Positions 40,916 to 63,629 of a stretch of DNA of 64,000 nucleotides are shown here, piece after piece. Each line of letters starts with the position of its first letter. Within the stretch, counting starts at the first letter, position 1. The stretch spans positions 157,294,001 through 157,358,000 of the forward strand of contig OX597814.1 in NCBI GenBank assembly GCA_951406725.2, written 5' to 3'. This stretch comes from Octopus vulgaris. Its lineage: Eukaryota. The position numbers and the translations under genes were made by a program. The notes under the pieces were generated by a model, which was not told the DNA's origin, searched no databases, and worked only from the letters and a program-made list of their open reading frames with translations.

Positions 40916-43900
40916 CTAGCAGATATACCCGGCGTTGCCCGTGTTACATGCAATTGAAGAATTAGACTTTTCTGTTATATTTTCTGTATTGAACTGGAAT
41001 ACCTATGTTTCAAATTTCATCTAAATTGCACATGAGGGTTATTTTCCTCTTTACACACCCTAAAAAAATTGTAATCGTGCCACATGTATCCCATACTACT
41101 GATTTTTATGCGCATATTCCCAAATTCCAGTGTTATTGAAACTGTTAATAGGATTATGCTCCTGAAAAATGAAGGTCATGGAGCCATAAAATGTGAGAGT
41201 TAAGACCCCTGTTGGGGGTGGGTGTCTTAATGTCAAGCAGAGAAGTTGAATTGTTGAGACTCTTTTTAACTTGGGTCTTATATCTATTGTTTGAATTTCT
41301 TTGAAATAGGGAATATACGTTCACTGGCTTTGTAAAAGAGAGCAAAGCTACAGGAAGCCATAAGACGAATGATCACAATAAGCAATCAGCTACTCTACCC
41401 TAGTCGTTAGCACTCCCAATGTAGGATTCCTCACCATCCAGGTGACAGGCACAGCCGTAAGATGCATTACGAATCTATAGCAATTGGAAGGGCGTGACCC
41501 TACTGAAATAAACATTAACAACTGTATGACGTGAGGGCTAAGGAGAAATGAAAGTGTCAACTCTGGAGTTTGCAAATGACAACTCTACAGATACGTAACT
41601 GGACAGAATAAATCTACAATCTATAAATGTCTTTGAATAACCAGTCACCCATCTGGGAAGGCCTTGAAATTAATATTACCATCTGGGGACTATGCGTGAC
41701 CCAGTGATAATAAAACACTGAAAGGAGGTCTGAAATCAAATAACTTTACTCAACACTTTGCAACTGAATCAGTGGAGGCAAAGATGCCTCTCATTTACTT
41801 GACAATTTATGCAGAACATTGCATAAATCGCAATGTAAGTGTATGTTAAAGCAAACTGACACACTGCTCTACCCCTGAATTACAAATAATGCCCATCTTT
41901 TAAGCTCGGGTAACCCTACAGCTTCCAAGAGTACAACTGTATTCGTCTTTGCTTAGATAAAATGACAAAATTATGGGTGTTAAGTCCCCATGGGGGGGTC
42001 TTTCTAACTTGTAAGAAGATGAAATTTTATAAATATTACTTGATTTGTGTCTAATATATATGGTTAAAATTTCATCAACAGCATAAATATATGAATTGTG
42101 ATGGGAGTAATGGCCCTTATGCATAGAATATAATTTCCAAATTTCATAAAGATCCATTCAGTACATTTTACCTAGTTTTGGATCATAAAAGAAATGACTA
42201 AAATTTGGGTGTTAAGGCCCCCATTAAGGTGTTATATACATATATATATATATATATATATATATATATATATATATATATATATATATATATATATATA
42301 TATATATATATATACATATTTATACATATATATATATCGATATACACACACACACAGAAAGACAACGATAGATTGATAGATACAACTGAGTGGACAAACA
42401 AAAATATGAGACACAGCCTAGTGCTTTTTTATGTTGATAAACCTGGTACTTATTTATCAGATTGTTCCTGTGAAACCAGCAAGTTATGGGGTTGTAAATA
42501 AATGATCACCAGTTGTGAACCAGTAATGAGGGCGAACCACAGAGACAAAGACACACACACATACATATATATAGACGTATATATACGATTGATTTGTTTC
42601 AGTTCCTGTCTACGAAATCCATATATATATATATATATATATATATATATATATATATATATATATATATATATATGTATGTATACACCCACACACACAA
42701 ATATGAATTGATAGATACAACTGAGTGGCCAAATTAAAATACGAGACACTGCCTAGTGCTTGTTTTATTTTGATAAGACTGGTACTTTTTCTATCAGCTT
42801 CTTCTTGTAAAACCAATATATTATGGGGATGTAAATAAACGAACACCAGTTGTGAAGCAGTGATGACTCACCCATAGAGTTACATATATACATACATATA
42901 TATACGATTGATTTCTTTCCGTTTCTGTCTACAAAATCCACTGACAAAGCTTTGGTTGGTCTGAGGCTATAGCAGAAGACACATGCCAAGTCACCACACA
43001 GTAGACTGAACTCAGGACCATGTTTTTGGAACCATGTTTTTAACCACACAGCCACACCTGTACCTATGTATGTGTGTGTGTGTATGGGTGTATCTATGCA
43101 TGCATGTATATATGCGTATATATATATGTACATATTACATCTATATATGTATATATCTACACATACATGTATACATATACACCTATATCTATAGAAATGC
43201 ATCTCTACATATACATGTATATATATACATATGTATATATATATATATATATATATAAATATATATATATATATACAGATACCCTTCATCTGTATTGATC
43301 ATTTTATTCCCCTACGACGGAACTACGAATTCATTTTCGGCAGTATTATTTGTGACTCACGTGGGGGAAAATCTGGAGGGAGATACGAATTCACTTGTCT
43401 ATATAAATGTGGATATGCTGGTGGGCTTCTATATGTCAGATTTATTTATCGGAAAATTATGTTAATAAAGGAAATGAATCTCTGATTTTAATCCAGAAAC
43501 GTGCGTCCATAATTGACCGGACATTGTTTGATTTCGTTGTTTTTCTTCGTTTTTTTTTTGCCATAGTGACTTACAAATACTGTTGTTTGTGGGACATATT
43601 TTTGTAGTAAAAGAAATAACAGTCGTCTGGCTGCTATTTCTAATACTTTCGGTATGTGGTCAAGCAACCTGTTGCAAAGACCCTCATTGTTTCATATATA
43701 TATATATATATATATATATATATATATATATATCCACATTTATATATATACATCTAGATATACAGATCTACCTATAAATCTATCTATCTATCTATCTATC
43801 TATCTATCTATCTATCTATCTATCTATCTATCTATATATGTATATATATATATATATATATATATATATATTTACATGCAAATTTAAATTTAAAATAAGG

Positions 43901-44320
43901 GTGAAAAATTGAATATTAATTTGATTAATATGAATTTAAAACCAGCGGTGTAGCATATAAGACCATAGCGGATCTTCTTCTAGCATAATGGATGTCCATT
44001 TACAGTTCATCCCTGTTATATAATAGTTTCAATTTAATAGTTTCAGTATTAAAGTGAAAGTATTAAAGTGAAATCACGGGATATTACAATAGAGACATAT
44101 TTTTCTTTCACTTTTGACATGTAATACTGACATAGTGGAGAAGACACGATATTGCTGCGGGCTCGCACTATGCAAAAAGTTAAAATTTGTTTTTGCCCAT
44201 GACACTACCTGCACCCTAAGTAAGGCATGTGTAAAATTTGAATGAAATTGGTAGTGTAGTTCTCAAGTTTTAGGGATTCCCACAGACAGACAGACACATT
44301 CTCAGTTTTATGTATATAGA
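40916..44320 (-). mobile_element. Helitron-like insertion block (one composite or nested elements) carrying SINEs and microsatellites
   Basis: Minus strand starts TC at 44320 and ends cacgggcaacgccggg..CTAG at 40916; the flanks rejoin to match the uninterrupted sequence at ~37405-37420. Confidence 0.6.
42400..43060 (-). mobile_element. Degenerate SINE plus a tandem partial copy
   Basis: Head ggtgtggctgtgtggtt near 43058; 42370-42620 repeats 42705-42940. Confidence 0.7.
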
Positions 44321-61137: not shown

Positions 61138-61863
61138 GTAAGGACGTAACCAAAATTACCCGGAAAGATTCTCTGTAGGACGAACACTTTGCAGTTCAAA
61201 GCTTCCCCCACTAGAAGTCCACGTCGGCCGAAACAGTTGCCATGCTTCAAACAACTTCCAAGGACGTTGTTATGAGCAAAGCAGAAATTTAGTGTGGTTT
61301 TCACGCTTTAGGAATGGTCACTTGTCGCATGAAGACCCACCCCATTCAAGGTGAGCGTTGACCTTCCAAACGAATAAAAACAAAATGAAAATTCGTGAAC
61401 TGATTGTGGAGAAATGTCACCGAATAATTAACGAACAATTGACTACTGTATCCTGCCAAAGATTGTTGAACTAGGAATTACGAATGAAAACAGTTGTAGC
61501 AAGATCTGTGCCTTGCTTGCTCATGCAAGATCAAAAGCAGTCACGACTGAATGCGTATCATGAACTGAAAGAACAGCTGGAAGTTGATCCGGACCTTTTT
61601 TTCGAAGGTCATCAATGATGAGGAAAGCTGGTACTACGGAATTTAGAGGTGTGGAATTGAAGAAGAAAAAAAAACGACGGAGGTGTTTAAAAAAGTATCA
61701 CTTCGCAAGTGTTCCAGGCCTACTTCGAACAGTGGATAATATATCTGGACCGATGCATTGCTTCAAACGGAGGAAACTTTGAAGGTAGTGTAAGCGTAAA
61801 CATGTAAATCTAAGTGAATAAAATTATATTGCAAAATTCCAGTTCTTTAGGAGTATCCTTTCG
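61138..61863 (+). mobile_element. Internally deleted mariner transposon (right-arm mirror)
   Basis: Reverse complement of 45602-46436. Confidence 0.8.
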
Positions 61864-63629
61864 TATATGTATAAACATGTCATCCAATGTTTAGGATGTT
61901 ATACACTATACATCTGTACGACCAGAAAGAATTTAAAGGTCACCCTAAGAAAGTATCATTTATCAACTCAGACTATAATCTCCAACAGCTGATGGCTGTA
62001 GTGGCTGTACCTGCGGACCCGTTTATTTCAGACTCCATTGAAGAATCATAGCTTAGGTGAGATCGAACAAAGGAATGTAATACCAATCCTTCATATCTGC
62101 AGATTGAATAGCAAAATAAGTCCAACATCACCACACACACACCTCGATCCCCATATAACAATCATTCCTTCCTCTCTTCCCATCACCTTCCCTTCCTCCA
62201 CGCCAAATATACACAGAAATACCCACTTAACCAACCTTTGGATAAACAACCTTTGGTAAACATCCATGAACGGCATATCGCCTGAAAAATTGAATCCATG
62301 AAGTGTATCTACCCGATAAAGATCCACTTCATGAAGTACGGAGTGTGATCGTTAGACACGTGGGATGTATTCCCTCTCATGCACAGATTTTTTAATTAAT
62401 GTTTTAAACTAAACACTTTGAAACTTCGGATACTGGGAGAATGTGTCATGTAGAAAAGGGTTTAATCTTAACGTTTTTGACAAAATTTTGTATTTTAGAA
62501 GTTATTTCTTGTTAAATTGTCGTATTTGGGTAATTTTAACCAATCAATGACGTGTATCCACCTGAAGAAAATTATTGCTGCTGTTTGCCATCAACAACCT
62601 CCGGGTCAATAGACAAAACGATGTATCTTCGACAACAGAAAAATTTAAACTGAAAATCTCCCCTAACAGAACCCTTCTTTAATAACCGGAGATGTTATTA
62701 TAGCAACATATATGATAATGTGTGTGTTCGTGTCTCTCTCTCTCTCTCTCTCTCTCTCTCTCTCTCTCTCTCTCTCTCTATCTATCTATCCACACACACA
62801 CACATATATATATATACATACACACAAACATTAATAATAGGCAGAAATTACAGAGTGATGGCCAAATTCATGTTTGATAATTGTCAATACGTGAAACTCT
62901 TAGCATTTGACTTACTCTCTAAATTCTGCCGAAGTAAATGAGCTAAATATAAGCATATGTACGAACTGCTAATTTAACCGTAAATGCCACAATAATTCTC
63001 TATATATATAAAACTGAGAATGTGTCTGTCTGTCTGTCTGTCTGTTTTTTTGAATACCTAAAGTTTGAGAACTACACAACCAATTTCATTCAAATTTTAA
63101 ACATGCCTTACTTAGGGTCCATTGAACTTTTTACCTAGAGTGAGCCCACAGCAATATCATATCTTCTCCACTAGTCCAGTATTACGTGTCAAAAGTGAAA
63201 CAAAAACATCCCTCTATTGTAATGTCACATGATTTCCCTTTAATATACTTTCACTTTAATACTGAAACTATTAAATTGAAACTTTTATATAACAGGGATA
63301 AACTGGACATCCATTACGCTAGAAGATCCGCTATGGTCTTATATGCTACACAACTGGTTTTAAATTCATATTAATCAAATTGATATTCAATTTTTCACCC
63401 TAATTATCTTAAATTTAAATTGGCATGTAGATATATATATGTATATATATATATATATATATATATATATATATATATATATATATATATATATATATAT
63501 ATATATTCATATACATTTATACATTTATACATATAGATAGATAGATGTATATATATATGTATACGTATATATATATATATATATATATATATATATATAT
63601 ATATATAGATGTATATATATATATATAAT

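What the first reader, a model, noticed from the sequence alone, without database searches (positions are those of the whole stretch)
43870..63430. ~19.5 kb palindrome that may extend to duplicate the lectin locus
Seen: 8-9.5 kb arms mirror each other around a ~2 kb spacer and carry the same ordered mariner, PLE and Helitron-like remnants. The arms differ by substitutions and indels, so this is an old inverted duplication and not a read fold-back. On the right the match is interrupted by a CR1 insertion at ~63630, so the true outer edge is not visible. Inference: the mirror may continue past the window and include an inverted paralog of the lectin gene.
Basis: partly seen in the sequence, partly recalled or inferred. 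Interest (0 to 1): 0.75.

Follow-up and report, generated by a model that had tools for sequence, protein, structure and literature searches.

The report
Mirror duplication in octopus lectin cluster
This 19.5-kb mirror is the core of a 56-kb inverted duplication, likely made by a DNA fold-back, that copied a lectin gene whose mirror copy now lacks its first exon; it lies in a 1.2-Mb octopus cluster of 24 lectin gene copies that appear to swap sequence, a known kind of gene-family growth.

Summary
The mirror is real and continues past the window. The arms 43884-53574 and 54999-63418 differ at 4.5% of sites around a 1.42-kb spacer. Beyond a 5.4-kb insertion (LINE plus a foldback element) the mirror resumes and pairs 26775-43058 with +82697..+68787, giving about 56 kb with no assembly gap. 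It includes an inverted paralog of the window's 261-aa PAN + C-type lectin gene. That paralog keeps open exons 2-3 but has a 1.9-kb deletion of exon 1 and its upstream DNA, so it is likely a pseudogene. The locus lies in a 1.2-Mb Octopus vulgaris cluster of 24 lectin units (15 complete) that holds other inverted duplications. Four close units are mosaics of each other (0 of 10000 permutations), and their third exon has dN/dS 2.1-2.8 (non-independent pairs). The fold-back point lies in a hammerhead-bearing repeat, not a Helitron. A haplotype misjoin is unlikely: other individuals differ by 0-2% here, and both inner junctions appear in public contigs, one marginally. This is a known kind of structure (fold-back inverted duplication, palindromic gene cluster). 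The scan noted a similar 35-kb palindrome elsewhere in this genome (e1-8666025).

The parts
43884..53574 (+). Left inner arm of the palindrome
   Evidence: 302 of 6735 columns differ from the right arm
54999..63418 (-). Right inner arm (inverted copy)
53575..54998 (.). Spacer, 1.42 kb, not mirrored; 53794-54311 and 54544-55002 have one older homolog (92%) about 232 kb left of the window
26775..43058 (+). Outer part of the left arm; mirrored outside the window at +82697..+68787 (window-relative), 676 of 11225 columns differ
36477..36831 (-). Lectin exon 1 (hydrophobic leader + PAN-like domain)
   Evidence: (PF00024 E 3e-4, 21.0 bits, cut-off 21.4)
31026..31205 (-). Lectin exon 2 (first part of C-type lectin domain); mirror copy open at +78655..78825
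27631..27881 (-). Lectin exon 3 (second part of C-type lectin domain); mirror copy open at +81601..81846, 63% protein identity
   Evidence: (PF00059 E 5e-5)
36462..38353 (-). 1.9 kb (exon 1 and upstream DNA) missing from the mirror copy; 1-base microhomology at the joint
53385..53792 (-). Left copy of a high-copy non-coding repeat of about 475-bp period; its hammerhead core is damaged
54999..55367 (+). Right copy of the same repeat, hammerhead core at 55077-55125; its 5' end is the fold-back joint; shares 4 derived changes with the left copy
53794..54311 (-). GC-rich retroelement-like fragment in the spacer (Penelope label recalled from the peptide, no Pfam support)
51635..53040 (+). Very young LINE fragment in the left arm only (RVT_1; 98-99.9% identical to copies elsewhere)
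63420..64000 (+). Start of a 5.4-kb interruption of the right arm (TA repeat, LINE from 63629, then a foldback element, to +68786)
47020..47629 (-). Penelope-like remnant in the left arm; mirrored at 59531-60527
   Evidence: 72% and 68% to 13310-14321; GIY-YIG
45600..46430 (-). Dispersed repeat shared by both arms and unit B (mariner label unconfirmed)
1732..12322 (+). Further block mirrored at +157602..+146820 (3.6% substitutions); possibly a remnant of the same, once larger inverted duplication

Best explanation
This is a 56-kb inverted segmental duplication in an octopus PAN/C-type lectin gene cluster, likely made when a broken or stalled DNA end folded back about 1.4 kb onto a hammerhead-bearing repeat and copied the left arm in reverse. 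Shown: the mirror, its extent, the spacer, the exon-1 deletion in the mirror gene, arm-specific insertions, and the mosaic pattern among four units. Inferred: the fold-back origin; later ectopic gene conversion or unequal crossing-over with neighbouring units; diversifying selection on exon 3 while the mirror gene was still functional; its later loss of exon 1, which likely made it a pseudogene. The palindrome itself is most likely a by-product of birth-and-death growth of the cluster, with no function of its own. The genes are likely secreted carbohydrate- or microbe-binding proteins (inferred from domains only).
For: Mirror and extension; the first N gap is at +101544, beyond both arms. The inner 47.6-53.6 kb is absent from units A and B, and a 1-kb probe of it has 1 match above 90% besides itself among 48 matches, so DNA was duplicated at this centre. 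The two copies of the central repeat share 4 derived changes, against 0-1 (right) and 0-3 (left) shared with each of 15 other copies, so the right copy likely descends from the left. Spacer of 1.42 kb and a 4-base overlap at the joint (3 of 4 bases match the left arm today) fit human fold-back duplications: spacers 766-70,466 bp, median 3,428, with 2-8 bp microhomology (PMC3907307, passages). Public contigs carry the left inner joint in 2 of 4 runs shown (X1 record 4, X4 record 17) and the fold-back joint in 1 of 4 (X2 record 10, 29-33 letters on the arm side). Those contigs differ from the assembly by 0-3 of about 232 letters in the spacer. Mosaic: 170 informative sites fall in 36 runs, longest 33, 0 of 10000 permutations as extreme; D is 1-2% from A at 30.7-32.7 kb but closest to C at 33.7-35.7 and 46.7-47.6 kb. 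Exon 3 dN/dS 2.13-2.82 in 6 of 6 pairs, Fisher p<0.03 in 2 of 6. Other inverted duplications in the cluster.
Against: No raw or long reads were available, and no listed contig spans the centre; the fold-back joint is bridged only marginally. Microhomology of 2-3 bases is weak: 134 of 1000 random junctions had 2 or more in PMC3907307. The outer end of the duplication is scrambled, so the second joint that an interstitial event needs was not found. The selection signal is modest: pairs are not independent, private changes (40 nonsynonymous, 6 synonymous) give p=0.14, the pooled ratio over all 19 exon-3 copies is 0.62, and the 3' flank of the window's gene is also diverged (11.7-12.6%), which could mean conversion from a distant donor. 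Expression and ligand are untested.
Confidence: 0.72

Rival explanations
1. Assembly artefact: two haplotypes joined head to head.
For: The cluster has two N gaps. The block right after the first gap (+101.6 to +146.9 kb) is a direct copy of +164.7 to +202.9 kb at only 1.35%, so haplotype duplication may occur nearby. The fold-back joint is only marginally bridged.
Against: Arms differ by 4.5-6.0% against 0-2% between the assembly and contigs of other runs. The right arm is a mosaic nearest to different paralogs. There is no gap inside the 56 kb. Both inner joints occur in public contigs.
Confidence: 0.07
2. Repeat-seeded origin: two inverted hammerhead/Penelope-type repeats were inserted first on either side of the spacer, as such elements often are, and their homology (or the retrotransposon enzymes) primed the large duplication.
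For: Both inner joints lie in this repeat family, which covers only 0.31% of the 1.364 Mb. Other family copies are themselves head to head (L132, L135, L136). Inverted 5'-truncated copies are typical of Penelope-like insertions (PMC8557442, PMC3846280; passages). Three of 21 human joints used homologous LINE or SINE repeats. Scan note e1-8666025 describes a similar centre elsewhere (unchecked).
Against: The two central copies share 4 derived changes, as expected if one was copied from the other after it had begun to decay. They are 1.2-1.4 kb apart, not adjacent. Later conversion or a shared source element could also give the shared changes.
Confidence: 0.15
3. Plain inversion inside an existing tandem array brought two older paralogous units head to head, without new duplication at the centre.
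For: Units A and B are direct copies of the window's unit at similar divergence (6.4-6.6%), and gene orientation switches several times in the cluster.
Against: The inner 6 kb of arm exists only in the two arms, and mirror symmetry runs to within 1.4 kb of the centre.
Confidence: 0.06

Closest known systems
Fold-back inverted duplications of the human genome (Hermetz et al. 2014, PMC3907307; 12 passages read)
   Same: Inverted copy next to the original around a short single-copy spacer (1.42 kb here; 766-70,466 bp there) with a few bases of overlap at the joint, in or near a repeat.
   Different: Theirs are new, near-identical, mostly with terminal deletions. This one is interstitial, 4.5-6% diverged, reshaped by insertions, deletions and exchange, and no distal joint was found.
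Avian IGH loci built by recurrent inverted duplications with pseudogene donors (bioRxiv 10.64898/2026.09.05.749481; abstract and section 5 read)
   Same: A multigene recognition-type locus with genes on both strands, several palindromes, partial copies, and signs of conversion.
   Different: Inversions there average 2.8 kb and feed somatic conversion of one expressed gene. Here blocks are 10-60 kb, 15 of 24 units are complete, and no somatic process was tested.
Palindromic collinear gene blocks of Folsomia candida and of the human Y (PMC5490193; 7 passages read)
   Same: Gene-bearing palindromes in an invertebrate genome, with conversion proposed.
   Different: Arms here are not homogenised (4.5-6%) and exchange also involves direct copies; Y-type near identity is absent.
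Non-LTR retrozymes and Penelope-like pseudo-LTR repeats (bioRxiv 10.64898/2026.07.22.740005, PMC8557442; passages read)
   Same: The central repeat is non-coding, tandem (about 475-bp period), often head to head, and has a type I hammerhead-like core in 13 of 17 copies.
   Different: It explains only the 0.4-kb repeat at the joints, not the arms. Cleavage was not tested and Rfam gave no hammerhead hit.
Mollusc C-type lectin repertoires (PMC10140915; 12 passages read)
   Same: Lineage-specific, likely secreted C-type lectin expansion.
   Different: That paper reports very few C-type lectins in cephalopods; here one cluster holds 15 complete genes with an added PAN-like domain. Its supplements were not read and may count some of them.

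Membership tests
Palindromic (inverted) segmental duplication | Collinear inverted blocks over 1 kb at 90% identity or more, including non-repeat DNA | tested here: met
   17,995 aligned columns, 979 substitutions, including two exons and introns
Palindromic (inverted) segmental duplication | Both arms on one DNA molecule | tested here: inconclusive
   No gap in the assembly; inner joints in short public contigs; no long reads
Fold-back inverted duplication | Short single-copy spacer between the arms | tested here: met
   53575-54998; one older homolog 232 kb away, none in the arms
Fold-back inverted duplication | Inverted microhomology or repeat homology at the spacer/arm joint | tested here: inconclusive
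   4-base overlap, 3 of 4 matching today; near chance level
Fold-back inverted duplication | Second (distal) joint or adjoining deletion | tested here: inconclusive
   Outer end rearranged; blocks out to -109 kb/+204 kb mirror at 3.6-4.7%
Y-type concertedly evolving palindrome | Arms near-identical through continuing arm-to-arm conversion | tested here: not met
   4.5-6.0% substitutions, no rise in identity towards the centre
Ectopic gene conversion or recombination among paralogs | Clustered switches of nearest relative along the alignment | tested here: met
   36 runs among 170 sites, 0 of 10000 permutations; conversion and double crossing-over are not told apart
C-type lectin domain proteins | PF00059 match | tested here: met
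   Exon 3 E 5e-5 above cut-off; 4 of 4 full-length relatives E<=4e-12
C-type lectin domain proteins | Calcium-dependent sugar binding | not testable with these tools
   Units B, C and D lack a cysteine kept in A and most other copies; its role in a disulfide is recalled
PAN/apple domain | PF00024 match at the curated cut-off | tested here: inconclusive
   21.0 bits against 21.4; 1 of 4 relatives passes
Non-LTR retrozyme / type I hammerhead repeat | Hammerhead core with three stems in a tandem non-coding unit | tested here: met
   13 of 17 copies with core; stems I 5-6/6, II 3-4/4, III 2-4/4; pattern written from recall; no Rfam hit
Non-LTR retrozyme / type I hammerhead repeat | Self-cleavage and circular RNA | not testable with these tools
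   needs bench work
   No Pfam hit in the central frames; no shared ORF around 6 other copies; termini were not scanned
Somatic gene-conversion donor archive (bird Ig type) | Expressed sequences carrying donor tracts absent from the same animal's germline | not testable with these tools
   needs matched DNA and RNA of one individual

The most novel reading that the evidence does not exclude
The cluster is an invertebrate counterpart of the bird IGH locus: repeated inverted duplications keep a stock of promoterless lectin copies with open exons 2-3 (the mirror copy D, and the pair at +558/+571 kb), which serve as conversion donors, perhaps in somatic cells, that diversify the ligand-binding exon of the expressed octopus lectins.
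Probability: 0.06. Interest if true: 0.8.

Novelty: new member of a known kind. Interest (0 to 1): 0.4.

Why it matters
The palindrome is an ordinary kind of event, but it is well preserved: spacer, joint, derived pseudogene and exchange tracts can all be read. Its main value is that it points to a 1.2-Mb, fast-changing PAN/C-type lectin cluster in an animal group reported to have very few C-type lectins (PMC10140915). I found no description of the cluster in 5 literature searches aimed at it (listings only). The one public gene model that carries the window's exon 1 joins it to a transposon endonuclease (P0001), so domain counts from annotation may miss such genes. If expression in immune or barrier tissue is shown, the cluster is a testable candidate for diversified microbe recognition in octopus.

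Tried and rejected
Run search: 11 of 24 listed runs hold part of the centre, none half or more; no RNA holder listed, so nothing on expression. Contigs: no listed piece spans the centre; at 97% likeness none of 4 runs covered 55360-55590, which proves nothing because such records may be filtered. Pfam on 18 arm and window fragments: no hit at a curated cut-off. Mariner test: tblastn of 4 peptides gave no hit in the window, pairwise BLAST E 6.8. Rfam over 43500-64000: 61 weak matches, none at gathering score, nearly all on TA repeats, no hammerhead. Loose hammerhead pattern in the window: 6 matches against 3.9 expected, not significant by itself. Protein search with exon 3 of the mirror gene: 1 hit among 9 candidates (unit A, 76%), so no full-length version of the mirror gene was found; weak evidence. 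Private-change test of selection: p=0.14. Scan notes near the window and by protein sequence: none. Rejected: read fold-back (arms diverged); Y-type homogenised palindrome; Helitron label; exon 1 hidden elsewhere in the right arm (no match between +50 kb and +159 kb except 62 bases of intron). No fold or complex was run, as the claim does not rest on one.
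Full report
Setting. The window is G000:C1:157294001-157358000 of a 2.8-Gb genome. Source names of proteins on a contig of the same length are Octopus vulgaris. Coordinates are window-relative; values above 64000 or below 1 lie in neighbouring stretches (1.364 Mb in all, with N gaps only at +101544 and +771615).

Observation. After masking microsatellites, eight collinear inverted blocks link 43884-53574 with 63418-54999. They differ at 302 of 6735 columns, 4.5%, with 5.9 gaps per kb. Each arm has its own changes. The left has a LINE fragment at 51635-53040 that is 98-99.9% identical to copies elsewhere, so it arrived long after the arms split. 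The right has short insertions near 56.2-56.9 kb and a 5.4-kb interruption from 63420 to +68786: a TA repeat, a LINE, and a young foldback element. The spacer is 1.42 kb.

Extension. The mirror resumes at +68787 and runs to +82697, matching 43058 down to 26775; 676 of 11225 columns differ. The palindrome is therefore about 56 kb and has no gap. The window's gene has three exons (36831-36477, 31205-31026, 27881-27631; 786 bases, 261 aa) with a PAN-like domain just under Pfam's cut-off and a C-type lectin domain. The mirror copy (D) has open exons 2 and 3 with splice sites in place. It lacks 38353-36462, which removes exon 1 and about 1.5 kb upstream, with one base of microhomology. No exon 1 lies between the centre and D. 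D is therefore likely a pseudogene; expression could not be tested.

Cluster. A genome search found exon-1 matches (22 of 48 candidates) and exon-3 matches (19 of 25) only at C1:157.02-158.22 Mb. In the fetched DNA there are 21 exon-1, 20 exon-2 and 19 exon-3 loci, which I group by order and strand into 15 complete and 9 partial units, 9 on the minus and 15 on the plus strand. The same call lists further inverted blocks, among them nested ones around +244 to +398 kb and +637 to +854 kb. So this palindrome is not alone. Blocks further out also mirror across our centre: 1.7-12.3 kb with +157.6 to +146.8 kb (3.6%), -109 to -68 kb with +204 to +158 kb (4.7%), -58 to -16 kb with +288 to +244 kb (2.7%). 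Their divergence is like that of the inner arm (4.2%), which suggests, but does not show, one larger event that was later reshuffled.

The centre. The inner 47.6-53.6 kb is absent from direct paralogs A and B, which join the Penelope remnant to other DNA, so DNA was duplicated here. Most of the spacer has one older homolog 232 kb to the left, with different neighbours on both sides; both spacer ends are thus derived joints. Both lie in a high-copy non-coding repeat of about 475-bp period that is often head to head elsewhere. It has a hammerhead-like core with three stems in 13 of 17 copies (motif from recall, no Rfam hit), as described for retrozymes and Penelope pseudo-LTRs (passages). The left and right copies share 4 derived changes against 0-1 and 0-3 with 15 other copies, so the right copy most likely came from the left one with the arm. 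The joint has a 4-base overlap. This anatomy fits the fold-back model of PMC3907307 (passages). The microhomology is too short to prove it, and no distal joint was found.

Is it real? Contigs of other runs differ from the assembly by 0, 3, 3 and 3 of about 232-250 letters in the spacer and 2 of 92, far below the arm divergence. The left inner joint is bridged in X1 (0 differences) and X4. The fold-back joint is crossed by one X2 contig with 29-33 letters on the arm side, marginal by the tool's 31-letter rule. One of these runs may be the assembly's own source. X4 and X6 hold both versions of the spacer sequence. No long reads were on hand. I put a misjoin at 7%.

Exchange and selection. Units A, B, C (window) and D were projected on C; 7623 columns are shared by all four. 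The 170 informative sites fall in 36 runs, longest 33, and none of 10000 shuffles was as clustered. D is 1.0-1.8% from A at 30.7-32.7 kb but nearest C at 33.7-35.7 and 46.7-47.6 kb. This shows exchange among inverted and direct copies. Exon 3 has dN/dS 2.13-2.82 in all 6 pairs (Fisher p 0.023-0.165), while exon 1 has 0.36-0.74 in 3 pairs and exon 2 has 0.15-1.27 on very few changes. Against this: the pairs share branches, private changes give p=0.14, the pooled ratio over 19 copies is 0.62, and C's 3' flank is also diverged. I take diversifying selection as likely but not shown. D's open, amino-acid-diverged exon 3 suggests that it worked as a gene for a time.

Comparison and novelty. The structure belongs to known kinds: fold-back inverted duplication, palindromic gene blocks (PMC5490193, passages), and inversion-built recognition loci (bird IGH preprint, abstract and section 5). 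It fails the test for a Y-type homogenised palindrome. Searches (listings only) showed no description of this cluster; subscription papers and supplements were not seen. PMC10140915 (passages) reports very small cephalopod C-type lectin repertoires. Scan note e1-8666025 describes another large palindrome with a Penelope-like centre in this genome; it led me to the test and was not itself checked.

Verdict. Observation confirmed, extension confirmed, paralog present but truncated. New member of a known kind; interest 0.4, mostly for the lectin cluster that the palindrome reveals.

Noticed in passing
L001:1933-4624 (window +65933..+68624): Young foldback element: 1.1-kb inverted arms at 98.6% around a 231-aa open frame that looks like a Penelope endonuclease end (recalled; no Pfam hit), inside the right arm.
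   Followed up: partly
window 17884-20912: Inverted repeat with 100% identical unmasked pieces around TA/CA-rich DNA.
   Followed up: no
window 38626-39785, 40027-40498, 27071-27418, 11995-12080: Several small inverted-repeat elements; the first has 165-bp ends at 96% and sits between TA repeats.
   Followed up: no
+101644..+146900 versus +164700..+202900: Direct duplicate at 1.35% that starts at an assembly gap; possible haplotype duplicate. One copy lacks exon 1 (at the gap), the other lacks exon 2.
   Followed up: partly
window 12.4-17.3 kb: Matches +83.9 to +89.3 kb in direct orientation while unit B matches there inverted: a likely secondary inversion in the window's unit.
   Followed up: partly
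P0001; window 36477-36831 and 8388-9137: The public gene model joins lectin exon 1 to a retrotransposon endonuclease frame and skips exons 2-3; likely a misannotation.
   Followed up: partly
window 27631-27881: The window's exon 3 lacks a cysteine kept in most paralogs (also missing in B and D), has lost the usual stop and carries 19 private amino-acid-changing substitutions.
   Followed up: partly
+558461..+571185: A second exon 2-3 pair with open frames and no exon 1 of its own, directly behind a complete gene on the same strand; could be an alternative 3' end or a second truncated copy.
   Followed up: no
+295 to +340 kb: Dense knot of overlapping inverted copies at 90-98% identity in the middle of a second palindrome.
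   Followed up: partly
L134:5346-8501: Open frame of about 1050 aa next to a tandem array of the hammerhead repeat.
   Followed up: no
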